A stretch of 64,000 nucleotides of DNA, taken from IMG/VR virus record IMGVR_UViG_3300047550_006373, positions 949 to 64,948 of that record; one strand, written 5' to 3'. Positions 14,641-59,269 of the stretch are shown piece after piece. The position numbers were made by a program, and so were the translations under genes. The DNA is from a virus (Duplodnaviria; Caudoviricetes). The notes under the pieces are model-generated. The model made no database searches. It was not told the DNA's origin and saw only the letters and a program-made list of their open reading frames with translations. Positions within the stretch are counted from its first letter, which is position 1; every line of letters starts with the position of its first letter.

Positions 14641-15288
14641 ATGAGCATTCACCCTACAGCAATCATTGAAGACTCTGTTATTTTAGGAGAAAACGTAACA
14701 ATTGGACCGTATTCTGTAATAACAGGTAAGGTCATTATTGGCAGCGGAACCACGATATATTCTCACTGTACCATAGGAGGACTAGGAGAATATCCTTCTA
14801 AGAGAATGGATGAGATACAGGATAATGTGGGAGTAGTTATAGGAGAAAATTGTATCATAAGAGAGTCTGTTAACATCAATGCAGCAACAATAGCCAATCA
14901 AAATACTGTTATTGGTAATAACTGCTATATTATGACCAAATCACATGTAGGACACGATGTTATACTTGAAGAAGGAGTCGTAATATGCAGCTGTGCTGTT
15001 ATAGGCGGATACTCAAAGATAGGAACAAAGACTTACGTGGGTCTGAACTCTTCGATACACCAACGATCTGATGTTGGAGGCTATTGCATAATTGGAGCAC
15101 AATCCTTCTTTAAAGGTGAAAGCCCTGACGGAATAACCTGGGCGGGTACACCTGCAACTCCAAAAAAGGTCAATTTTTTTAATCTAAATAAGAATCTAAA
15201 AGATGGATCTCAAAAATCGGGAATAGTAGATAAAGCTGAGCTTTATATTAAAAATTTCTCTAAATCTCAAAAGAAAGAAAAAGAATGA
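14641..15288 (+). CDS. LpxA-like left-handed beta-helix acyl/acetyltransferase
   Basis: IHPTAII start and hexapeptide repeats. IRESVNINAAT, HVGHD and IHQ match the LpxA motifs IRESVTIHRGT, HIAHD and VHQ. C-terminal region is short. Confidence 0.8.
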   Translation: MSIHPTAIIEDSVILGENVTIGPYSVITGKVIIGSGTTIYSHCTIGGLGEYPSKRMDEIQDNVGVVIGENCIIRESVNINAATIANQNTVIGNNCYIMTKSHVGHDVILEEGVVICSCAVIGGYSKIGTKTYVGLNSSIHQRSDVGGYCIIGAQSFFKGESPDGITWAGTPATPKKVNFFNLNKNLKDGSQKSGIVDKAELYIKNFSKSQKKEKE

Positions 15289-16223
15289 TTTCAAGAAGTT
15301 CTATTGCTGTTATCGGACAAGGTTTCGTGGGTGGTTCCATTACCACAGTTTTTTCAGAACACGGTTTTGAAGTTTTTGTTCATGATAAAACTGGTAAAGT
15401 ATCCCCTGGAGGTAAGCAACCTGAAATCGCTGGTGGTACACATGCAAGTAATGTCAAAGAATTCGTAACAGCTTGCGAAAAAGTTGTGGACTTTTCAAAA
15501 GTATACTTCGTGTGTCTTCCAACTCCCATGTATGAAGACGGATCTGCAGACCTCAGTATAGTCGAGGGTGTGCTTGACGAGATAGCATCTGTTCCAGGTG
15601 ACAGGATTGCTGTCGTGAAGTCAACTATTCCTCCCGGCTCTACTGAAGGCTGGAACAAGAAGTACGAATCTACAGGGCTGAGAGTGATCTTCAATCCAGA
15701 GTTCCTCACAGAAGCAAACGCGCTCGACGACATGAGAAACCAGAACAGGATCATCATCGGTGGACCAAGACCTTGGATCAATTCAGTGAAGCAGATATTT
15801 CAAACTGCCTTCCCCAAGGTTCCGATTATCAAGACTTCCTCGACGACTGCAGAAATGGTCAAGTACCTCACTAACAACTTCCTCACGGTCAAAGTTGCAT
15901 TCGCGAATGAGATGGCTCAGATTTGTGAGGCCCTAGACGCTTCAGGTCTCAACGTGGACTACGACAAGGTTGTCGAATATGCCAAGTACGACCGCCGACT
16001 CGGAGACTCTCATTGGGGAGTACCAGGACCTGACGGTGCCCGAGGGTATGGAGGTCACTGCTTCCCCAAGGACATCAATGCAATGATCGATGTCGCTAAG
16101 AAGAACGGTGTAGATCCCAAAGTTCTCACCTCCTCCTGGGAGAAGAACCTTGAGGTGAGACAACCTGAACACAGAGATTGGGAGAAGATGTCAGGCAGGG
16201 CAGTGTCAAAACGCAGTACTTGA
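15285..16223 (+). CDS. UDP-glucose/GDP-mannose 6-dehydrogenase family protein (short form)
   Basis: GQGFVG, CLPTP, KSTIPPG, FNPEFL, AEMVKYLTNNFL, GYGGHCFPKD (catalytic Cys). At 312 aa it lacks the usual C-terminal domain. Confidence 0.9.
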   Translation: MISRSSIAVIGQGFVGGSITTVFSEHGFEVFVHDKTGKVSPGGKQPEIAGGTHASNVKEFVTACEKVVDFSKVYFVCLPTPMYEDGSADLSIVEGVLDEIASVPGDRIAVVKSTIPPGSTEGWNKKYESTGLRVIFNPEFLTEANALDDMRNQNRIIIGGPRPWINSVKQIFQTAFPKVPIIKTSSTTAEMVKYLTNNFLTVKVAFANEMAQICEALDASGLNVDYDKVVEYAKYDRRLGDSHWGVPGPDGARGYGGHCFPKDINAMIDVAKKNGVDPKVLTSSWEKNLEVRQPEHRDWEKMSGRAVSKRST

Positions 16224-16249
16224 ACTATAGAAGTCTGACATGCTACTAT
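16220..16249 (+). promoter_or_regulatory. sigma70-type promoter with extended -10 and near-leaderless start
   Basis: TTGAAC (16220-16225), 18-nt spacer, TGcTACTAT (16241-16249). ATG is 9 nt downstream with no Shine-Dalgarno. Confidence 0.5.
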
Positions 16250-16258
16250 TAAAACAAC

Positions 16259-17071
16259 ATGTCAGAAAATCAATTTCAAGTACTCCCAACAGGCAAACCT
16301 CACGTATCTTTTTCTGAGGTGAAGACCTGGAAGGATTGCTCCTATAGGCACCACCTCACCCACGTGAAGAAGATCGATTTCTTCAAACCCTCACCTGTAC
16401 TTGAGTTCGGCACAGCGGTGCACGCTTCATGCGAGAAGTACCTGCTCACTCGTGAGATGGATGTGAAGTTGTGCCACGATGCCCTCGATGAGGCATGGGC
16501 CAAACATGGTGGTCAGGAAGAATTCACAGAAAAGGCATTAAAGGTTGCCAAGACTGAGTCTGAAGCAATTCTCTCCGAGGTACCTGCATTCCTGGACAGG
16601 GAGTTTCCCGAGTGGTCTGTTGTGGATGCGGAGCACGCCCTGTATGAATCTGTGGAGGGTCATCCCCACGCATTCAAGGGCTTCATCGACGGCGTTATCA
16701 AGTGTAAAGGTAAGCGAGGAGAAGACCTCTATTGGATCATCGACTGGAAGACGTCTGCTAACGGCTGGAGACGAGAGAAACGTTCGGATGAGATGGTGAA
16801 GGCCCAATTGGCCCTCTATAAGAACTACTGGCACCAGAAGAATCCACAGGTTCCCTTCAAAGACATCAGATGTGCATTCGCCATCCTCAAGAAGTCGGCG
16901 AAGCCTGGGCAGCACTGTGAGCTCTTTTCCGTCTCTATGGGTGACGTCCCTATTAAAAAGTCCTTAAAAGTAGTGAGCAACATGATTACCTCTGTTAAGA
17001 GAGGAATTTCTCTTAAAAATCGTGATTCTTGTACGTACTGTGAATACAAAGGAACAGAGTACTGCACTTAA
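16259..17071 (+). CDS. PD-(D/E)XK nuclease, Cas4/AddB-like with Fe-S cysteines
   Basis: SFSE..WKDC, FGTAVH, GFIDG, IIDWKTS, QLALY and a terminal CTYCEY.....C (1+3 Cys pattern). Confidence 0.85.
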   Translation: MSENQFQVLPTGKPHVSFSEVKTWKDCSYRHHLTHVKKIDFFKPSPVLEFGTAVHASCEKYLLTREMDVKLCHDALDEAWAKHGGQEEFTEKALKVAKTESEAILSEVPAFLDREFPEWSVVDAEHALYESVEGHPHAFKGFIDGVIKCKGKRGEDLYWIIDWKTSANGWRREKRSDEMVKAQLALYKNYWHQKNPQVPFKDIRCAFAILKKSAKPGQHCELFSVSMGDVPIKKSLKVVSNMITSVKRGISLKNRDSCTYCEYKGTEYCT

Positions 17072-23034: not shown

Positions 23035-24906
23035 ATGGAATTAAAAATGGCAATCAACGATAACAAAACTGCGATTAAGTCTGTAAGACAAAGAAATTAT
23101 TTAGCAAGAGATTTTGATGGATTCAGGACAGTCCTGTTGGACTACGCAAGACAATATTATCCAGATAGAATACAAGACTTTTCTGAATCTTCCGTGGGCG
23201 GCCTTTTTTTGGACATGGCAGCTTACATTGGCGACAACATGTCTTTCTATCTGGACCACCTCTACGGAGAACTCAATAACGAAACAGTTGTTGAGACAGT
23301 TAACATAGAGAGAGCATTGAGAAGCTCAGGGGTTCCAATCGTTGGGGCATCTTCATCTATTGCAACAGTAGATTTTTACATAGAGGTACCTGTATTGGGA
23401 GACGGTACATTAAAGCCTAATCCAAATCTTCTTCCGACAATCCTGGCGGGTGCAATAATTTCGTCGGATAGCGGGATAGAATTTACGCTCTTAGAAGATG
23501 TTCAATTTTGGGACGTAAATTCGAAAACCGGCGAAATAGTAGTGGATTCAAAAGTAGAAGTAGTAAATGGAAGGCGAATTAATGGTGAAATAGTAACAAA
23601 AATTTTAAAGAAACCAGGAGTATGTGCGTCTGGAGCGCAGGCAACTGACACCTTTACCATAGGTGATTTCGTACAGTTCAGAAAACTCTCCCTAGGTAAT
23701 TCAAATGTAACACAAATTCTTTCTGTTACGGACTCGCTGGGAAACACTTACTACGAAGTAGAAAATCTGACACATGACGTAGTCTACAAGAGTGTTATTA
23801 ATAACTCTAACACTTCTCTAGTACGTGACAATCTAAAAGCAGTCCCTGCGCCTTACAGATTTGTCAAAGAAGTCTCTTTGACTGACAGGAGAACAACACT
23901 TATTTTCGGAGGCGGCACGGCGGACAATCTAGAAGACGATGTCGTCCCTGATCCGTCAGAGTTCTCTATTCCGCTTCCCTTCTCTCAGACTTTTTCAAGA
24001 GTGCCTGTTAATCCTCAGAAACTACTTCAGACATCTACGCTAGGAGTTGCTGGTGCAAATACAACACTAAGTGTAACTTATAGATACGGTGGCGGTCTTT
24101 CGCACAATGTTCCTGCCAATACAATTAGAAGCATTTCAAATATCTCAATATCATTTCCAAACAACCCGACCCCAGGACAGCAAGCGCAAATTAGAGGCTC
24201 AATAGAAGCTTCTAACCCAAATGCAGCCTCTGGTGGTGAAGATTCTCCTACTGCAGAAGAACTGCTAGCTCTTGCCCCTACAATTAGAAACTCTCAGGAA
24301 AGAATTGTTACCAAGGAAGATCTTCTCTCGAGAGTTTATACGATGCCAAGTAACTTTGGAAGAGTATTTAGAGCTTCGATTGTAAAGAACCCAAACAATC
24401 CAATGGCGTCGAGACTCTTCATAATATCGAGAAATCCCGACAACGAATTAATCATCTCGCCAGATGATTTAAAAATAAACTTAAAGAGATACTTGAATTC
24501 TTACAGAATGATATCCGATGCAATCGACGTCATGGATGCAGGAATAATAAACCTCGAGATATTCTTTCAAATAGTCGTAGATCCTTCTCTTAATAAACAG
24601 CTCGTGCTACAGAGCATAATTTCCGATCTTAAGACCCAATTTGCAATAAAAAACTTTCACATTGGACAGCCGATAGTCATATCAGACATAGTCTCAACAA
24701 TATTTTCAAAATCCGGCGTAATATCAGTCGATTCCATTAAGATTAATAATCTGAACGGAACAGTGAAAAATAGACAGTATTCTCCCGTATCATTCGATGT
24801 ACAGCTCAATACCAAGAATCAGATAATCTACCCACCAGAAGGAACTATATTCGAGATAAAATACCCAGACATCAACATCGTTGGAAAGTGTGTCACTAAT
24901 CTTTGA
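23035..24906 (+). CDS. baseplate wedge subunit, T4 gp6/baseplate J-like
   Basis: YLARDFDGFR, DFSESSVGGLFLDMAAYIGDNMSFYLD, VTYRYGGG, ASGGED, QERIVTKED. The start may be the ATG at 23047. Confidence 0.88.
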   Translation: MELKMAINDNKTAIKSVRQRNYLARDFDGFRTVLLDYARQYYPDRIQDFSESSVGGLFLDMAAYIGDNMSFYLDHLYGELNNETVVETVNIERALRSSGVPIVGASSSIATVDFYIEVPVLGDGTLKPNPNLLPTILAGAIISSDSGIEFTLLEDVQFWDVNSKTGEIVVDSKVEVVNGRRINGEIVTKILKKPGVCASGAQATDTFTIGDFVQFRKLSLGNSNVTQILSVTDSLGNTYYEVENLTHDVVYKSVINNSNTSLVRDNLKAVPAPYRFVKEVSLTDRRTTLIFGGGTADNLEDDVVPDPSEFSIPLPFSQTFSRVPVNPQKLLQTSTLGVAGANTTLSVTYRYGGGLSHNVPANTIRSISNISISFPNNPTPGQQAQIRGSIEASNPNAASGGEDSPTAEELLALAPTIRNSQERIVTKEDLLSRVYTMPSNFGRVFRASIVKNPNNPMASRLFIISRNPDNELIISPDDLKINLKRYLNSYRMISDAIDVMDAGIINLEIFFQIVVDPSLNKQLVLQSIISDLKTQFAIKNFHIGQPIVISDIVSTIFSKSGVISVDSIKINNLNGTVKNRQYSPVSFDVQLNTKNQIIYPPEGTIFEIKYPDINIVGKCVTNL

Positions 24907-54943: not shown

Positions 54944-55201
54944 ATGTACGCCACTATACAGCCACTAAGCTACAGGCAAGGAAACGCAACAATTCTCTCA
55001 ATAACTCAGACGAGCGTTGATCTGAGTAGAGGAGCAGCTGTGAGCTGGTCACTCATGAACGAAGACAGAACAGTCCTGTTTGAGCACGGAACCAGTCTGC
55101 TTGGAGGTGAAGAGTATTCGTCTTGGCTCGGAGATGACGAGTACGTCATGAGATGGCTTGCAGAAAAATTAAGTGTTACTATCGTTGAGATACACACCTA
55201 A
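54944..55201 (+). CDS. small fibre-associated protein (possible assembly chaperone), paralog of 55956-56261
   Basis: AAGGA ribosome-binding site; follows the fibre gene; aligns with 55956-56261 (MYA.I.P..YR.G.A; L.GEEY..W...D.YV..WLA..L..TI). Confidence 0.6.
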   Translation: MYATIQPLSYRQGNATILSITQTSVDLSRGAAVSWSLMNEDRTVLFEHGTSLLGGEEYSSWLGDDEYVMRWLAEKLSVTIVEIHT

Positions 55202-55222: not shown

Positions 55223-55933
55223 ATGGAGCAGATAAAAAAGATCATAGAGGTTGGCTGTAGAGGACTAGCAAAAGATCCTGTCTCGCTGTCTGAGATAGTC
55301 ACGAGAGAAGAAAAAGAAATCTATCTCGTGTCAGATGCTGACTGTCCTACGTACAGCTTCTTGATGATACTTTCAGACAAGAGGAGCAAGAAGAACAATC
55401 ACAAAAATTTAGGTCTCTATTCGGGGGTGATTGAACATTCCCCCAAGACAAATTTGAGTCTCGATGGAATCTTCTCCGTTAAAAAACATCACGCCGGCGG
55501 CTACGAAGCTGTATATCTTTGGGCGAACTCACCGATTGAGGCAACAATACTCTACTGTCTTGGATTGAGAGTATGGAAGAAAATATCCTCTGACAGAGGA
55601 GACTCTCCTGCTGTCAATTCTGTGCTAGATAGACTTAGAAAGACAGATGGTAACAATCTAGAAAATGAGTACAACATTCGAGCTGGACTGGAGAGTCTCC
55701 CGTATGGAAGAGACGTGAAGATTATTGCTCTTGGATCGGCTGGTTCTTACGATCTTATGCAAGATGAACCAAGCTACGTTATTGCTGAAAGAATTGCAGA
55801 AGCAAACAGGGACATGTATCTTCGACATGATTCGGCTTTCGACGAGATGCACAGAATAGCAAAGCTATTTGGTCTGTCCCTGCCCGCAAATCAGAAAGAC
55901 TGGGAAAACAAATCAAACTTCGATAATAAATAA
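55223..55933 (+). CDS. hypothetical protein
   Basis: Long ORF between the two paralogs; ATG 55223 is in frame with the TTG at 55205. No family recognised. Confidence 0.5.
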   Translation: MEQIKKIIEVGCRGLAKDPVSLSEIVTREEKEIYLVSDADCPTYSFLMILSDKRSKKNNHKNLGLYSGVIEHSPKTNLSLDGIFSVKKHHAGGYEAVYLWANSPIEATILYCLGLRVWKKISSDRGDSPAVNSVLDRLRKTDGNNLENEYNIRAGLESLPYGRDVKIIALGSAGSYDLMQDEPSYVIAERIAEANRDMYLRHDSAFDEMHRIAKLFGLSLPANQKDWENKSNFDNK

Positions 55934-55955
55934 CATAGCGAAAGGCCAAACATAA

Positions 55956-56261
55956 ATGTACGCAAAGATCGAACCAATCACATACAGAACAGGACAGGCG
56001 AAGTGCATCGTCGTAAGAAACACATCGGTACAGCTTGGAAGCCGAGCCGTCGTTGAGTGGTCGCTCATGGGAGATCAAGAGACGGATCGTAGAGACTATG
56101 AATCGGGAGGAACTCAGCTCTCAGGCGAGGAATATCTTGCGTGGGGTCAAAGCGACGACTACGTATACGAGTGGCTCGCCGCACAACTCAATCTCACAAT
56201 AACGTCTATAGAGAGCGGAAGCTACTGGGACAACCCACCAGCCCCACCTCCCGCTGCGTGA
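55956..56261 (+). CDS. small fibre-associated protein, paralog of 54944-55201
   Basis: Same pattern as its paralog plus a Pro-rich tail (NPPAPPPAA). Confidence 0.6.
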   Translation: MYAKIEPITYRTGQAKCIVVRNTSVQLGSRAVVEWSLMGDQETDRRDYESGGTQLSGEEYLAWGQSDDYVYEWLAAQLNLTITSIESGSYWDNPPAPPPAA

Positions 56262-56279
56262 TTTACTGTCACTTAATGA

Positions 56280-56807
56280 CTAGCTGAGGACATCGCCTAT
56301 GACGATGTCCTCTTCTGTTTCTTGCTGCAAAAGACCCAGACCCAGCTGAGGATCTAGAAATAACTTTGTAAAATCAAACTTAGAAACAATCTTTCCCTTG
56401 ACTTGAGTTATTTTTATACCTTCAGGTGTAATCTTAGCATTCCAGGGAACAGCATCAGAAGTCGTCCAGCCTGAATACACTTCCATGAGACCCATTTTTT
56501 CCTCTGTGCCTTTGAGAGGTGTAATTTTACCAATTCTAACCTTGTCGTATTTGTCAAAGATTCCGCCTCTTCTCAGGTATTCTTGTGGATCGTCCGAATC
56601 TCCATCGTCAAAGATCCACTCAGACCCAACCCACTCTACTTCGAGAATCTCTCCGCGGTTCAGAGACACAATTTTTCTGTATTCTTCTTCAAATCCGTCC
56701 GGGTATGGAGGCTCATCTTTTAGATAATAGGCAGACTCTACAGAGTCATACAACGTGAAAGATACAGGTGACGAACCTCGTTTTAGACTAAGCTGAACTT
56801 TCTTCAC
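56280..56807 (-). CDS. hypothetical acidic protein
   Basis: 175-aa ORF with a GTG start after GAGG; no family recognised. Confidence 0.55.
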   Translation of the reverse strand: MKKVQLSLKRGSSPVSFTLYDSVESAYYLKDEPPYPDGFEEEYRKIVSLNRGEILEVEWVGSEWIFDDGDSDDPQEYLRRGGIFDKYDKVRIGKITPLKGTEEKMGLMEVYSGWTTSDAVPWNAKITPEGIKITQVKGKIVSKFDFTKLFLDPQLGLGLLQQETEEDIVIGDVLS

Positions 56808-56831
56808 GTTTTCCTCGACATTGTAAGTATT

Positions 56832-57452
56832 CTACAAGGAAACTCGAATCTCGCTAGCCATCAATAATTCGTATTTCTTCTTGAGGACCTTTCCAATACC
56901 AGGATTCACCTTCAGTGCCTCGGGAACGATCGCCATTCGAATGAGGTTGCGCATGTACTTAGGATCGCTGTTGGACTCGTCCTCGATCCACGTGAGATTC
57001 CTCCTCGAAGCCCAGGATCGGATCTCCTCCTTCGGTGTGACCAAGAACGGACGGATCACATTTCCACGAGAATAAGGAATCAACTTGGATTCTCCGTGAA
57101 GTGAGGTGAAGATCCACGTCTCGATCGCGTCACCCAGGTGGTGACCCGTCACCACAGGACCTCCCAGGGAGTCCAGGAATGTGTACCGTTCATTCCTCCA
57201 AAATTCCTCGGGGGAAACGTCCTTGGATTTCTTGGAATTAATCCGTCCAATCCTGAGGGGTACGTGGCGTTCCTCCGCGAATTTTCGAACAAACTCCTCG
57301 GCACGTTCGGAGTTGATCGTTCCGTGGTGGAAGAACGCGAGGGTCACGTCACGTTTTCCGTTCAAAAGAAAGTCGGAGATCACCACGGAATCGATGCCAC
57401 CTGAGAAGGCGATTGTACACTTCCGCGGAAGATCCCCGATAAACTTCAGCAT
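56832..57452 (-). CDS. tilS: tRNA(Ile)-lysidine synthetase, minimal catalytic-domain form
   Basis: PP-loop AFSGGIDS, FHHG, EEFWRNERY, TGHHLGDAIET, IRPFL, WIEDESN...YMRNLIR. GAGG ribosome-binding site. 20 nt from a CAU tRNA. Confidence 0.9.
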   Translation of the reverse strand: MLKFIGDLPRKCTIAFSGGIDSVVISDFLLNGKRDVTLAFFHHGTINSERAEEFVRKFAEERHVPLRIGRINSKKSKDVSPEEFWRNERYTFLDSLGGPVVTGHHLGDAIETWIFTSLHGESKLIPYSRGNVIRPFLVTPKEEIRSWASRRNLTWIEDESNSDPKYMRNLIRMAIVPEALKVNPGIGKVLKKKYELLMASEIRVSL

Positions 57453-57472
57453 GACTTCCTCTTAGAAAATAG

Positions 57473-57546
57473 TGGAACCACTCGGACTTGAACCGAGAGC
57501 CGGCTGATTATGAGTCAGATGCTCTAACCTATTGAGCTATGGTTCC
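57473..57546 (-). tRNA. tRNA with CAU anticodon, most likely tRNA-Ile2 (lysidine substrate)
   Basis: GGAACCATAGCTCAATAGGTTAGAGCATCTGACTCATAATCAGCCGGCTCTCGGTTCAAGTCCGAGTGGTTCCA folds as a cloverleaf. Paired G1-C72 and no triple G-C anticodon stem, so not an initiator. Loop CTCATAA, A73, CCA not encoded. Adjacent to tilS. Confidence 0.85.
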
Positions 57547-57558
57547 GTTGAATATCAG

Positions 57559-57640
57559 TACCGCCCGTGGGAGTTGAACCCACATGCCTTTCGGCGCCGG
57601 GATTTGAATCCGGAGTGTATGCCAGTTCCACCAGAGCGGC
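57559..57640 (-). tRNA. tRNA-Leu(CAA)
   Basis: GCCGCTCTGGTGGAACTGGCATACACTCCGGATTCAAATCCCGGCGCCGAAAGGCATGTGGGTTCAACTCCCACGGGCGGTA; long variable arm (GCC-GAAA-GGC), loop TTCAAAT, A73, A31-C39 mismatch. Confidence 0.85.
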
Positions 57641-57652
57641 CTTGATGATATT

Positions 57653-57682
57653 AACTTACCCTATACTGAGCTAACTTTACAA
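57653..57682 (-). promoter_or_regulatory. possible sigma70-type promoter for the tRNA-Leu, tRNA-Ile2, tilS unit
   Basis: On the minus strand TTGTAA, 18-nt spacer, TAAGTT, ending 12 nt before the tRNA-Leu 5' end. Same -35 hexamer as at 10697. Confidence 0.4.
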
Positions 57683-58063
57683 TAACTTTAAGTTACGAGT
57701 TATCTCATCGATCTTTCGTGAATCGTCGGGACCAATAGCGACGCAAAGAGTCTCTGTGCCGCCCTCTTCGTCAAACATTTTTCCTTCCACGGGATAACAC
57801 TGAAGACCAGCAAGTTCCGCCTTAAAAGTTAAACTTTTAAGAGTTGTCTCCGATCCTACGCCCAAAACTACGCGAATAGAGCCGCTGTTGATCCAGTCTG
57901 TCTCTTCGGGAGTGAGCCTGACTGAAAGAGTGTCGCCCCGCTCAGATTCGTCATTCACTAGAAAAAATTCTGTAGAAGCCTTTGCAACCAGAGAGGCAAC
58001 CTGGGATTTTTTCATCTTCAGATCTTGACGTACAAGGATAACTTGTTTCAGATCGCTGGGCAT
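57677..58063 (-). CDS. peptidyl-tRNA hydrolase 2 (Pth2)-like protein with degenerate active site
   Basis: KQVILVRQDLKM, W...G..RVVL, LCVAIGP...IDEITRNLKLL. AGGAGG ribosome-binding site. GKxAAQxxH and DAGxT motifs are altered. Confidence 0.8.
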   Translation of the reverse strand: MPSDLKQVILVRQDLKMKKSQVASLVAKASTEFFLVNDESERGDTLSVRLTPEETDWINSGSIRVVLGVGSETTLKSLTFKAELAGLQCYPVEGKMFDEEGGTETLCVAIGPDDSRKIDEITRNLKLL

Positions 58064-58198
58064 AACTGACCTCCTAACTTCTACATCTACTCTAATTTAA
58101 ATTGTCTGGGAGAAAGTGGTAAAATTTTCTTATGCAAACGTTTGTTGAATCGAAATTTCTACTAATCATAAGTAATCACAACAACGGAGATCATCACC

Positions 58199-59269
58199 AT
58201 GAAAGATAATAAGAAGTTTGCATTAGTTCTTTCAGGGGGAGGCGTAAAAGGAGCCTGGGAGGCTGGATTCCTAAAGTACATAGCAGAGAGATGGGGGCAT
58301 AAATTTGAAACAGTTTCGGGAGCTTCTATTGGGGCTCTCAATGGTCTAGTTTATTGTGCTGCAGCTCACGATGAAAAGAAGCTGCCTGATGCAATTGTGG
58401 ATCCGTGGAACAAAATAAGCTTTGGACAGGTCGCAAAGGTTCCGTGGAGTGATATATTCCATCTAAGATTCTATTCCGTACTCGATAACTCTCCGCTGCT
58501 AGAATTTGTGAATAAAAATCTTAATCTGGAACAATATAGAAAAAACATAGACACAGGAATCGTTACTGCAAACGTTCTTGCGACTACAGAACTTACTTCC
58601 AAACGTCTTCACATGTGGGTAGACTCTAAGGACAATAAAACATACGATTCTCCGGCGTGGATCACAAAGAAGCAGGAGCTGAATGGAACACACGCTGTCG
58701 CTTCAGGCGCTGTACCAATTGCCTTTAGATCACAACAACTGGGCGACGGCGGATGGCACGTGGACGGTGGTCTTTGTGAGAACACACCTATAGCACCCAT
58801 CCTGATGTCTTTCTATGATGATCGTACGGACAATCCTGACACGACTAACGATCCAAAGGTAAAGATACTAGTATTGACACTTCCCGAACCAGACGTCCAG
58901 CAGGAGTGGACAAGAGAACCTACGATTCTTACTCAAACATCACGCATGTTTGAAGCTCTCACTGTCAATCAAATCATGCAAGATGTTGCGAAGGCAAAGG
59001 CAATCAACGACTTCCTCGACACCCTTGGTACAGAATCTTACGGAAAGTACAGAAAACTAGACCTTCTTGTGGTAAGGCCCTCGACTTCTCTAGATGCTCT
59101 AGCTGGTAGTGTACAGAAAGAAATTGCGTGGGGACTGTTCCCAACTAACTGGATATCTTCTCTCTCTTTTCTATTGATATTTCAACCTTATGTACAGGTC
59201 TTACTTAAGGCGGGATACGCCGAGGCCGAGAAGATGCACGATCAACTGGAGGAGTTCTTCAACTCCTGA
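58199..59269 (+). CDS. patatin-like phospholipase
   Basis: LVLSGGGVKG (oxyanion loop), GASIG (nucleophile), ASGAVP, VDGG; GGAG ribosome-binding site. Confidence 0.9.
   Translation: MKDNKKFALVLSGGGVKGAWEAGFLKYIAERWGHKFETVSGASIGALNGLVYCAAAHDEKKLPDAIVDPWNKISFGQVAKVPWSDIFHLRFYSVLDNSPLLEFVNKNLNLEQYRKNIDTGIVTANVLATTELTSKRLHMWVDSKDNKTYDSPAWITKKQELNGTHAVASGAVPIAFRSQQLGDGGWHVDGGLCENTPIAPILMSFYDDRTDNPDTTNDPKVKILVLTLPEPDVQQEWTREPTILTQTSRMFEALTVNQIMQDVAKAKAINDFLDTLGTESYGKYRKLDLLVVRPSTSLDALAGSVQKEIAWGLFPTNWISSLSFLLIFQPYVQVLLKAGYAEAEKMHDQLEEFFNS

What the first reader, a model, noticed from the sequence alone, without database searches (positions are those of the whole stretch)
56832..57682. Self-contained AUA-decoding module: tilS plus tRNA(CAU), with an AUA-free tilS and AUA-rich virion genes
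Seen: tRNA-Leu(CAA), tRNA(CAU) and tilS form one minus-strand unit behind a possible sigma70 promoter. By hand count tilS has 17 Ile codons (11 ATC, 6 ATT, 0 ATA) and no AGA. The gp25-like gene has 6 ATA of 14 Ile codons, and 24475-24900 of the gp6-like gene has about 16 of 24. Known: TilS converts C34 of tRNA-Ile2 to lysidine, switching it from Met/AUG to Ile/AUA, and AUA is rare in most GC-rich hosts. Inference: the phage first makes an enzyme that needs no AUA decoding, which then activates its own tRNA and opens translation of AUA-rich genes. This would be a codon-based timing gate or a defence against host tRNA depletion. Caveat: AUA-rich glycan genes also have sigma70-like promoters and NADAR has three early ATA codons, so the split is not absolute.
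Basis: partly seen in the sequence, partly recalled or inferred. Interest (0 to 1): 0.78.

Follow-up and report, generated by a model that had tools for sequence, protein, structure and literature searches.

The report
Phage AUA-decoding kit with AUA-free tilS
A fragment of a giant freshwater phage carries, in one gene block, a CAU-anticodon tRNA and a one-domain version of the enzyme TilS that would let that tRNA read the isoleucine codon AUA, which the phage uses very heavily; the enzyme's own gene avoids that codon, as phage tilS genes generally do and bacterial ones do not.

Summary
On the minus strand lie Pth2, tRNA-Leu(CAA), tRNA(CAU), a 206-aa TilS and a conserved 175-aa ORF. All hand counts are exact: tilS has 6 ATT, 11 ATC, 0 ATA and 0 AGA.

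The enzyme is the TilS catalytic domain alone. This belongs to a large, almost phage-only family.

A same-strand tRNA(CAU) lies upstream of tilS in 17 of 88 related loci.

ATA avoidance is real:
- In 21 phage lineages ATA is the most depleted of 59 codons (17 seen, 68 expected).
- Other A-ending codons are near expectation, apart from AGA (0.62) and enriched CGA (1.75).
- 69 cellular tilS genes show no avoidance (631 seen, 650 expected).

It is not unique to tilS: 2 of 8 other phage gene families avoid ATA too.

The timing gate is not supported. ATA makes up 36-43% of Ile codons in glycan, virion and other genes alike, including the genes flanking tilS. The sigma70 promoter is not confirmed.

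Best reading: a phage AUA-decoding support module whose enzyme gene is self-priming.

Phage and virus tilS genes are already in print. This scan has also noted the mini-TilS/tRNA pair and the AUA-free tilS on other DNA.

The parts
57677..58063 (-). Pth2-type peptidyl-tRNA hydrolase gene (128 aa), first gene of the minus-strand unit
   Evidence: PF01981 E 8.1e-19, 68.4 bits. TIGR00283 scores 69.4 bits, below its cut-off of 82. The family sits directly upstream of tRNA-Leu in 7 loci: WIN, L003-5, L028-30. Its 3' coding end is also seen in L002.
57558..57640 (-). tRNA-Leu(CAA), long variable arm, no encoded CCA
   Evidence: ARAGORN and Rfam tRNA at 39.9 bits. It is paired with tRNA(CAU) in L002-5 and L028-30.
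57472..57546 (-). tRNA(CAU), inferred tRNA-Ile2 and substrate of TilS. Canonical cloverleaf, anticodon loop CUCAUAA, A73, no encoded CCA, U27-C43 mismatch.
   Evidence: ARAGORN and Rfam tRNA at 70.6 bits. Best E. coli matches are annotated tRNA-Ile in 12 of 12 listed rows; one was checked and lies between mug and nfeF. Conserved upstream of tilS.
56832..57452 (-). mini-tilS: tRNA(Ile)-lysidine synthetase catalytic (PP-loop) domain only, 206 aa; 0 ATA, 0 AGA
   Evidence: Family matches. Aligns to A. aeolicus TilS residues 24-232 of 317. AF2 pLDDT 92.3; the six best PDB folds are all TilS. Codon counts.
56280..56807 (-). ORF175, conserved unknown gene directly downstream of tilS on the same strand
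   Evidence: The family has 9 members. It lies next after tilS in WIN, L002-5, L028-30 and L023. No Pfam or PHROG hit. AF2 pLDDT is only 53.6.
56286..56312 (.). 10-bp hairpin at the convergent junction that ends the unit
   Evidence: Terminator-like site with 6 GC pairs. It lies between the stop of the plus-strand ORF at 56261 and the stop of ORF175 at 56280. It overlaps the last codons of ORF175.
58064..58198 (.). Divergent intergenic region between Pth2 (-) and the patatin-like gene (+); the likeliest place for the unit's promoter
   Evidence: Inferred from gene layout. The only minus-strand promoter-like match (58235-58206) lies just beyond this region, inside the patatin gene's first codons. 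It is no more than chance gives.

Best explanation
This is a phage module that raises the infected cell's capacity to read AUA.

Layout (shown). Five genes lie on one strand with short gaps and are probably one transcript: Pth2, tRNA-Leu(CAA), tRNA(CAU), a one-domain TilS and ORF175.

Mechanism (inferred).
- TilS uses ATP and lysine to convert C34 of the neighbouring tRNA(CAU) to lysidine. It may also act on host tRNA-Ile2.
- That switches the tRNA from Met/AUG to Ile/AUA.
- The phage needs this because ATA makes up 42% of its Ile codons, at 27.7 per 1000 codons. That is about twice the frequency of ATG.
- Pth2 may recycle peptidyl-tRNA that drops off at starved rare codons.

Enzyme architecture. 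The enzyme lacks both C-terminal domains with which cellular TilS reads the tRNA body. It therefore probably reads little beyond the anticodon arm. This fits the finding that related phages put different tRNA bodies in front of similar enzymes.

Self-priming. The tilS gene avoids ATA, and AGA less strictly. I read this as selection to keep synthesis of the enzyme independent of the scarce decoder it creates. A minority of other phage genes share this property.

It is not a switch between early and virion genes, because almost every other gene in the window is equally ATA-rich.
For: Enzyme identity
- TIGR02432 at 111.5 bits, cut-off 93.6. PP-loop SGGIDS is invariant in the family alignments of 14 and 24 sequences.
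- The model has pLDDT 92.3. PDB ranks 1-6 are all TilS, with TMq 0.78-0.82.
- One Cys only, so I infer it is not an Fe-S thiolase of the TtuA/NcsA type.

One-domain form is the family norm
- All 14 aligned members end at the same point.
- The 120 listed of 950 homologues are 184-230 aa.
- At least 481 viral contigs encode a relative.
- Among the 80 best loci kept from a scan of one genome for each of 185,579 species, only 2 (both MAG contigs) exceed 40% identity. I measured the ORF in 13 of these. Ten of the 11 lower-identity hits are 427-459 aa, and one Saccharibacteria hit is 275 aa.

Linkage to the tRNA
- 17 of 88 loci have a same-strand tRNA(CAU) 16-5116 nt upstream, and none downstream.
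- 17 of the 18 loci that hold any tRNA hold this one.
- These are 13 distinct tRNA sequences.
- In 3 of 5 long records of the clade without an adjacent tRNA, a tRNA cluster elsewhere holds one CAU tRNA.

tRNA body swapping
- The window tRNA matches L028 at 74 of 75 bases, although the two TilS proteins are 62% identical.
- It matches L003 at 56 of 75 bases, although those TilS proteins are about 89% identical.

Demand for AUA.

ATA avoidance
- In 21 lineages (80% identity clusters), 17 ATA of 246 Ile codons were seen. Expected: 68 raw, 62 after composition adjustment.
- ATA ranks first of 59 codons for depletion (0.25, z -7.4). AGA is second (0.62). Of the other A-ending codons, eleven lie at 0.78-1.15 and CGA is enriched at 1.75.
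- In 20,000 gene resamplings the mean was 65.6 and the minimum 32.3.
- The cultured phage PA5oct has 2 ATA of 15 in tilS against a background of 0.57.
- 69 cellular tilS genes have 631 ATA against 650 expected, and 0 of 69 are ATA-free.

Precedents read
- A phage tRNA(CAU) carrying k2C34 in a vibriophage (PMC13191261, passages).
- Chlorovirus TilS with an AUA-rich virus and early transcription (PMC7589089, abstract and passages).
- Rare codons near starts cause peptidyl-tRNA accumulation (PMC2490762, abstract as shown in the search listing).
Against: - No activity, modification or charging data exist for any mini-TilS that I found.
- The Ile2 identity of the tRNA rests on weak sequence discrimination. 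Identity to E. coli ileX is 52 of 77, against 48 of 77 to metT. The antisense plastid trnI-CAU model gives 47.4 bits, against 39.5 for ileX and 32.1 for metT. The rest is synteny.
- 71 of 88 related loci have no tRNA(CAU) within the DNA fetched, so the enzyme does not need an adjacent tRNA.
- In this window tilS is also GC3-rich (0.64 against 0.36). The single-gene P after composition control is only 0.002-0.015.
- ATA avoidance is not unique to tilS: 2 of 8 control families and the PD-(D/E)XK gene with 0 of 11.
- 11 of 21 lineages keep 1-3 ATA codons, so avoidance is strong but not absolute.
- The host and its AUA capacity are unknown.
- Co-transcription is inferred from layout only. No promoter was identified.
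Confidence: 0.65

Rival explanations
1. General codon selection on a class of early or high-priority phage genes. On this view tilS avoids ATA and AGA only because it belongs to a set of genes tuned to the uninfected host's tRNA pool, not because of any self-referential logic.
For: - ATA is also the most depleted codon in 2 of 8 control families. One has 14 seen against 45.5 expected (z -5.5). The other has 19 against 33.1 (z -2.9).
- In the window the PD-(D/E)XK gene has 0 ATA of 11, and the UDP-glucose dehydrogenase-like gene has 3 of 20.
- AGA, which TilS does not touch, is the second most depleted codon in tilS.
- In the large clade tilS lies next to the DNA polymerase gene.
- Scan note e1-5817698 reports two codon classes in another phage.
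Against: - tilS is the most extreme of the 9 families (ratio 0.30 against 0.38 for the next). ATA is depleted far more than AGA (0.25 against 0.62).
- Pth2 and ORF175, in the same presumed transcript, do use ATA.
- In 13 of 21 lineages no neighbouring gene has a lower ATA fraction than tilS.
- This reading overlaps with self-priming and does not exclude it.
Confidence: 0.3
2. Compositional by-product. The window's tilS is ATA-free because it is a GC3-rich gene recently acquired from a source with different codon usage.
For: - GC3 is 0.64 against 0.36 in the background. A3 is 0.16. AGA is 0 of 17 Arg codons.
- Composition control raises P from 1e-4 to 0.002-0.015.
- The other two ATA-poor genes, at 15285-17071, also sit in a GC-rich island.
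Against: - Family-wide, eleven of the other twelve A-ending codons lie at 0.78-1.15 of expectation and CGA is enriched at 1.75, while ATA is at 0.25.
- L017 has 0 ATA of 19 at GC3 0.35 and uses AGA for 9 of 13 Arg codons.
- L028 has 0 of 16 with GC3 below its background.
- NADAR, with GC3 0.62, keeps 3 ATA of 7.
- The nearest sequences are phage genes, not cellular ones.
Confidence: 0.1
3. A true codon-based timing gate. Late or virion genes cannot be translated until TilS has matured the phage tRNA.
For: - tilS is ATA-free while virion genes are ATA-rich: 6 of 14, and 16 of 24.
- Chlorovirus tilS is reported as transcribed very early (PMC7589089, passage).
Against: - There is no class split: 0.43, 0.42 and 0.36 (P = 0.50). 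34 of 37 ORFs are ATA-rich, including glycan, auxiliary and same-unit genes.
- Nearly all bacteria already have TilS and tRNA-Ile2 (over 98% carry tilS, PMC12514573, passage). Host AUA decoding is therefore low, not absent.
Confidence: 0.07
4. Replacement or counter-defence. The module mainly replaces host AUA-decoding capacity that is lost during infection through host RNA degradation or anticodon nucleases, and does not add to it.
For: - In a T4-like vibriophage, phage tRNAs sustain translation while host nucleic acids are degraded. One phage tRNA(CAU) there carries lysidine (PMC13191261, passage).
- The Pth2 gene in the same unit suggests care for the tRNA pool.
Against: Nothing in the window speaks to host tRNA loss. 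The reading is compatible with the best explanation and was not tested.
Confidence: 0.2

Closest known systems
Bacterial TilS, type II (Aquifex aeolicus, PDB 1wy5/2e21/2e89) and type I (E. coli 1ni5, G. kaustophilus 3a2k)
   Same: - Same PP-loop catalytic domain: E 7.8e-27 to 1wy5 over residues 24-232.
- The six best structural matches have TMq 0.78-0.82.
- The SGGxDS motif and many aligned conserved residues are present.
   Different: - The protein ends where the linker to CTD1 begins, so it has no CTD1 and no CTD2.
[quoted passage not shown]
- Cellular tilS genes do not avoid ATA.
Phage-encoded tilS of Pseudomonas jumbo phages MIJ3 and PA5oct
   Same: - 44.6% identity over residues 1-193.
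- Same one-domain size: 612 nt.
- tRNA(CAU) genes lie 7-10 kb away in the same region.
- ATA-poor tilS (2 of 15) in an ATA-rich genome.
- MIJ3 tilS is reported with function unknown (PMC6892783, passages).
   Different: - In the window the tRNA(CAU) lies 20 nt upstream, in a Pth2-tRNA-tRNA-tilS-ORF175 block.
- The passages of the MIJ3 paper that I read mention neither the missing domains, a link to the CAU tRNAs, nor codon avoidance.
Chlorovirus TilS and tRNA clusters
   Same: The virus encodes TilS. [quoted passage not shown] The proposed role is to overcome host codon bias (PMC7589089, abstract and passages).
   Different: Those are eukaryotic algal viruses. No adjacent cognate tRNA or AUA-free tilS is described in the passages read.
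tRNA-Ile2(CAU) of T4-like phages, modified by the host
   Same: - Every tRNA-bearing T4-like genome studied has a CAU tRNA with IleRS signatures (PMC1524935, passages).
- Lysidine was found on a vibriophage tRNA(CAU) (PMC13191261, passage).
- A Leu+CAU tRNA pair in Enterobacter T4-like phages matches the window's pair at 72% over 167 nt.
   Different: By the passages read, those phages rely on the host enzymes. This phage brings its own enzyme.

Membership tests
TilS (tRNA(Ile)-lysidine synthetase) | PP-loop ATP pyrophosphatase domain with the SGGxDS motif, matching the TilS N-terminal model | tested here: met
   SGGIDS at residues 17-22 is invariant in A1 and A4. TIGR02432 scores 111.5 bits against a cut-off of 93.6. 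PF01171 E 5.6e-32.
TilS (tRNA(Ile)-lysidine synthetase) | TilS-type fold of the catalytic domain, as opposed to TtuA, NcsA, LarE or MnmA | tested here: met
   PDB ranks 1-6 are all TilS (TMq 0.78-0.82). TtuA and NcsA follow at 0.68-0.72. One Cys only, hence no Fe-S site.
TilS (tRNA(Ile)-lysidine synthetase) | At least one C-terminal tRNA-recognition domain (CTD1, with or without CTD2) | tested here: not met
   The protein is 206 aa and ends at the NTD boundary. No further Pfam domain was found. The full-length model NF007942 scores 73.7 bits against a cut-off of 606. The downstream ORF175 has no TilS-like match.
TilS (tRNA(Ile)-lysidine synthetase) | Forms lysidine at C34 of tRNA-Ile2 and rejects tRNA-Met | not testable with these tools
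   This needs an enzyme assay or mass spectrometry.
tRNA-Ile2 (CAU, lysidine-dependent) | CAU anticodon on an elongator body, not an initiator | tested here: met
   Anticodon cat. G1-C72 is paired and there is no run of three G-C pairs at the foot of the anticodon stem (my reading).
tRNA-Ile2 (CAU, lysidine-dependent) | Closer to known tRNA-Ile2 than to elongator tRNA-Met | tested here: inconclusive
   All 12 listed E. coli matches are annotated tRNA-Ile; one was checked and lies between mug and nfeF. Margins are small: 68% against 62% identity, and 47.4 bits against 39.5 and 32.1. No Ile2-specific model was available.
tRNA-Ile2 (CAU, lysidine-dependent) | Carries lysidine and is charged with Ile | not testable with these tools
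   This needs tRNA from infected cells.
Codon-based temporal gate | The gated gene class is enriched in the codon relative to an ungated class | tested here: not met
   ATA fraction is 0.43, 0.42 and 0.36 in the three gene groups (P = 0.50). 34 of 37 ORFs are at 0.2 or more.
Codon-based temporal gate | The gene that opens the gate is free of the gated codon | tested here: met
   0 ATA of 17. The family-wide ratio is 0.25.

The most novel reading that the evidence does not exclude
The module is a self-igniting positive-feedback circuit built on a body-blind enzyme.
- An AUA-free tilS message is translated on the naive host machinery.
- The one-domain TilS reads only the anticodon arm and matures the tRNA made from the same transcript.
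- Only then does translation of almost the whole AUA-laden phage proteome speed up.

Because the enzyme lacks the domains that reject tRNA-Met, it might also lysidinylate host elongator tRNA-Met. That would tilt the cell's decoding towards the phage.
Probability: 0.15. Interest if true: 0.75.

Novelty: new variant of a known kind. Interest (0 to 1): 0.55.

Why it matters
Current work on TilS holds that the enzyme needs appended domains to tell tRNA-Ile2 from tRNA-Met. It leaves open how the shorter type II enzymes manage this (PMC11947777). A large natural family of catalytic-domain-only enzymes, each often sitting next to its presumed substrate, gives a direct experimental handle on that question.

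The contrast between phage tilS (ATA at a quarter of expectation) and cellular tilS (at expectation) is a clean case of a gene shaped by the decoding step it creates. It is also a simple marker for phage genes that must be made before the phage's own tRNA supply works.

For phage biology, it adds an enzyme-plus-substrate cassette to the known ways in which AT-rich phages cope with host codon bias.

Tried and rejected
- Near and distant DNA search of 56200-58200 against phage records matched only the tRNA stretch. 0 of 115 records covered 80% of the query.
- PHROGs has no TilS family for this protein. The only hit was a weak QueC-like match, E 5.5e-4.
- The antisense hit to Rfam Plastid-ycf2 (47.4 bits, below the gathering score of 65.7) looked like an Ile2 classifier. 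The controls gave ileX 39.5 and metT 32.1 bits, too small a margin to decide.
- ORF175 gave nothing usable:
  - no Pfam or PHROG hit;
  - the profile against PDB sequences found nothing below E 0.33;
  - the AF2 model has pLDDT 53.6, too poor for a fold search;
  - the protein atlas gave no usable hit.
- I looked for a missed tRNA in the gaps before tilS in L006 and L024. Neither holds a CTCATAA loop motif; the L006 gap holds a small open reading frame.
- Sequencing runs: no RNA holder listed. I did not lay reads, because contigs cannot show expression.
- One paper search for the T4 temporal codon-class work returned nothing. I recall Cowe and Sharp 1991, which scan note e1-5817698 also names, but I did not see it.
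- Searches for phage tilS in print were. None of the passages I read describes the one-domain architecture, the tRNA adjacency or the ATA avoidance.
- Supplementary tables were closed. The PA5oct codon table S8 and its expression tables could show whether tilS is early.
- Rows dropped:
  - L026 and L027 from the codon counts, because my ORF caller found no tilS ORF;
  - loci with fewer than 60 background Ile codons from the family comparison, leaving 82 of 86;
  - 9 of 78 bacterial loci, for a short ORF, reversed hit or thin background.
- Genes were called with a simple longest-ORF rule, not a gene finder.
Full report
**What is there**

The window is bases 949-64948 of a 64,948-base viral record that CheckV rates 18% complete, so it is a fragment of a very large phage. 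ARAGORN finds two tRNA genes in it, both on the minus strand: tRNA-Leu(CAA) at 57558-57640 and tRNA(CAU) at 57472-57546. Rfam confirms both, at 39.9 and 70.6 bits.

Twenty bases after the tRNA(CAU), behind a GAGGA ribosome-binding site, starts a 206-codon ORF at 56832-57452. Its family matches are:
- the PP-loop family PF01171, E 5.6e-32;
- the NCBIfam model of the TilS N-terminal domain, 111.5 bits against a cut-off of 93.6;
- the full-length TilS model, only 73.7 bits against a cut-off of 606.

Upstream on the same strand, 36 nt before tRNA-Leu, ends a Pth2-type peptidyl-tRNA hydrolase gene at 57677-58063 (PF01981, E 8e-19). Downstream follows a 175-codon ORF with no family match. The unit is bounded by plus-strand genes on both sides. 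It ends at a 10-bp hairpin at the convergent junction.

- tilS has 6 ATT, 11 ATC and 0 ATA, with 0 AGA among 17 Arg codons.
- The gp25-like gene (PF04965) has 6 ATA of 14 Ile codons.
- Stretch 24475-24900 has 16 ATA of 24.
- NADAR has ATA at codons 31, 52 and 54.

The 'possible sigma70 promoter' is not confirmed. The scan finds nothing between Pth2 and tRNA-Leu. Its two hits in 55900-58400 are no more than shuffles give, at 2.8 +/- 1.6. Relatives L002, L003 and L028 show TTGTAA, 18 nt, then TATAAC or TATCAT ahead of tRNA-Leu. By my reading, the window has TAAGTT at the -10 position.

**The enzyme is a TilS catalytic domain and nothing else**

- It aligns to residues 24-232 of the 317-residue Aquifex aeolicus TilS (E 7.8e-27) and stops where the linker to the tRNA-recognition domain begins.
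- An AlphaFold model built on 24 relatives is confident, with pLDDT 92.3 and pTM 0.87.
- Its six best PDB matches are all TilS (TMq 0.78-0.82), ahead of the TtuA and NcsA thiolases.
- It has one cysteine, so there is no Fe-S site.

The short form is the norm for its family:
- 14 aligned members from phages 43-89% identical all end at the same place.
- The 120 listed of 950 database homologues are 184-230 aa.
- At least 481 viral contigs encode a relative.

Among the 80 best loci kept from a scan of one genome for each of 185,579 prokaryote species, only two exceed 40% identity, and both are MAG contigs. One encodes a 207-aa protein flanked by tRNA genes. I measured the ORF in 13 of these loci. 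Ten of the 11 lower-identity hits are ordinary 427-459-aa TilS. One Saccharibacteria hit is 275 aa.

[quoted passage not shown] They add that how type II enzymes discriminate is still open (PMC11947777, outline, passages and section 11; PMC12514573, passages). The phage family is thus a third, smaller architecture.

**Is the tRNA(CAU) the enzyme's substrate?**

Direct sequence evidence is weak.
- It is an elongator-type tRNA, with G1-C72 paired and no G-C run at the foot of the anticodon stem.
- Its best matches in E. coli genomes are annotated tRNA-Ile in 12 of 12 listed rows. The one I checked lies between mug and nfeF.
- It is 68% identical to that gene and 62% to metT.
- The antisense plastid trnI-CAU model scores it 47.4 bits, against 39.5 for ileX and 32.1 for metT.

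Synteny is stronger.
- In 88 loci that encode a relative of this TilS, 17 have a tRNA(CAU) on the same strand 16-5116 nt upstream, and none downstream.
- 17 of the 18 loci with any tRNA have this one.
- These are 13 different tRNA sequences.
- The abundant clade without an adjacent tRNA still carries one CAU tRNA in a tRNA cluster elsewhere, in 3 of 5 long records searched. The other two are fragments with no tRNA found.

The tRNA body is exchangeable. The window's tRNA matches that of L028 at 74 of 75 bases, although the two enzymes are only 62% identical. The phages with about 89% identical enzymes (L003-5) carry a tRNA that matches at only 56 of 75 bases. Some relatives even have long variable arms. 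This fits an enzyme that reads little beyond the anticodon arm.

The window tRNA has A3-U70 and A4-U69. It lacks the C4-G69 pair that the E. coli and B. cenocepacia enzymes both rely on (PMC11947777, section 11). A host type I TilS might therefore serve it poorly. That is inference, since the host is unknown.

**A wider conserved block**

The order NADAR, patatin-like (opposite strand), Pth2, tRNA-Leu(CAA), tRNA(CAU), tilS, ORF175 recurs in the window, L003-5, L028-29 and L030. L030 lacks only the patatin-like gene. These share 58-100% TilS identity. Rare codons near starts cause peptidyl-tRNA to accumulate and sequester tRNA (PMC2490762, abstract as shown in the search listing). A Pth enzyme in this block could therefore be part of the same rare-codon support function. 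That too is inference.

**Codon usage**

The phage uses ATA for 554 of 1331 Ile codons outside tilS (0.42). That is 27.7 per 1000 codons, about twice the frequency of ATG.

For tilS alone:
- P(0 of 17) is 1e-4 against that background.
- tilS is also GC3-rich (0.64 against 0.36).
- After regression on A3, GC3 or 4-fold composition, P is 0.002-0.009. With a pooled model it is 0.015.
- For a gene picked from 46, that is marginal.

The comparative data decide the matter.
- Taking one tilS per 80%-identity cluster (21 lineages), ATA is 17 of 246 Ile codons. Expected: 68 raw, 62 after composition adjustment.
- Ten lineages have no ATA, seven have one, and four have two or three.
- Of 59 synonymous codons, ATA is the most depleted (0.25, z -7.4). 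AGA is second (0.62). Of the other A-ending codons, eleven lie at 0.78-1.15 and CGA is enriched at 1.75. The effect is therefore codon-specific and not an A3 or GC3 effect.
- Replacing tilS by random neighbouring genes 20,000 times gave a mean of 65.6 and a minimum of 32.3.
- In 13 of 21 lineages no neighbouring gene has a lower ATA fraction than tilS.
- The cultured phage PA5oct shows the same: 2 of 15 against a background of 0.57.
- 69 cellular tilS genes, many from ATA-rich Bacteroidota, have 631 ATA against 650 expected. None is ATA-free.

**Limits of the interpretation**

tilS is the most extreme of nine gene families that could be compared, but not the only one.
- Two of the eight others also have ATA as their most depleted codon.
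- In the window a PD-(D/E)XK nuclease gene has 0 ATA of 11.

There is no split between virion genes and the rest.
- ATA fraction is 0.43 in the glycan genes, 0.42 in the baseplate and fibre genes and 0.36 in the remainder (P = 0.50).
- 34 of 37 ORFs with at least 10 Ile codons are at 0.2 or more.
- Pth2 (1 of 6) and ORF175 (3 of 12), in the same unit as tilS, use ATA.

This is not a gate that times virion synthesis. At most it is a self-priming feature: the enzyme can be made without the decoder it goes on to create, while nearly everything else in the phage benefits afterwards.

**Comparison with what is known**

- Phage tilS was reported in MIJ3 and PA5oct with function unknown (PMC6892783, passages).
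- It is listed in a Ralstonia jumbo phage as a 349-aa form (PMC8504454, passages) and in pelagimyophages (PMC7029224, passage).
- Chloroviruses keep a tilS that is transcribed very early, in genomes where AUA is 12-13 times commoner than in the host (PMC7589089, abstract and passages).
- T4-like phages carry tRNA-Ile2(CAU) (PMC1524935, passages).
- Lysidine has been found on a vibriophage tRNA(CAU) (PMC13191261, passage).

In my searches I found no passage that describes the one-domain architecture, the tRNA-tilS cassette or the ATA avoidance.

This scan has met the same module many times on other DNA. One earlier follow-up reports AUA avoidance in 49 of 53 phage tilS genes, and another reports two codon classes without a switch. 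My counts were made before I read those notes, and they agree.

**Verdict**

- The module reading is well supported.
- The self-priming reading of the AUA-free gene is supported by a phage-against-cell contrast, but other phage genes share the property.
- The timing gate is not supported.
- This is a new variant of a known kind, of moderate interest.

Noticed in passing
window 1-36000 versus 36001-64000: GC content steps from 0.33-0.44 to 0.45-0.50 at about 36 kb, where the three giant ORFs (2589, 1880 and 1918 aa) begin. The ATA fraction stays high on both sides, 0.44 and 0.38.
   Followed up: partly
window 15285-17071: Two adjacent genes form a GC-rich island (0.47-0.48) among genes at 0.33-0.37. 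They are UDP-glucose dehydrogenase-like and a PD-(D/E)XK nuclease. Apart from tilS they are the only ATA-poor ORFs, with 3 of 20 and 0 of 11.
   Followed up: partly
L007:7662-7747, L025:9899-9984, L009:7205-7288, L026:4961-5043: The tRNA(CAU) genes next to mini-tilS are 83-86 nt long. They have a long variable arm and an unusual D region, which is odd for Ile or Met tRNAs.
   Followed up: no
L028:9135-9932 and L009:7299-8192: An opposite-strand ORF of 265 or 297 aa sits between the tRNA(CAU) and tilS. In the window the two are 20 nt apart, so this may be an inserted element.
   Followed up: no
L018:13291-13365: ARAGORN calls a tRNA with anticodon CTA (labelled Pyl) in a phage tRNA cluster beside mini-tilS. 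It may be an amber suppressor.
   Followed up: no
window 54944-55201 and 55956-56261: Two small ORFs of 85 and 101 aa lie after the giant fibre-like genes. By eye, in the translations, they share a clearly similar N-terminal two-thirds and look like paralogues.
   Followed up: no
window 57472-57546 plus strand; L020, L021, L091: Rfam family Plastid-ycf2 (RF04354) matches the antisense strand of CAU tRNAs in general, at 28-47 bits and below its gathering score. It looks like a model of the complement of plastid trnI-CAU.
   Followed up: yes
window 59690-59752: The scan's index holds a first-reader note of a 63-nt tRNA-like element with an encoded CCA just before the NADAR start. ARAGORN did not report it.
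   Followed up: no
L016:11166-13874 and the same position in L084: In the abundant clade without an adjacent tRNA, tilS lies one or two small ORFs upstream of a family B DNA polymerase gene (phrog_262, E 3.5e-200). That places it in a replication gene block.
   Followed up: partly
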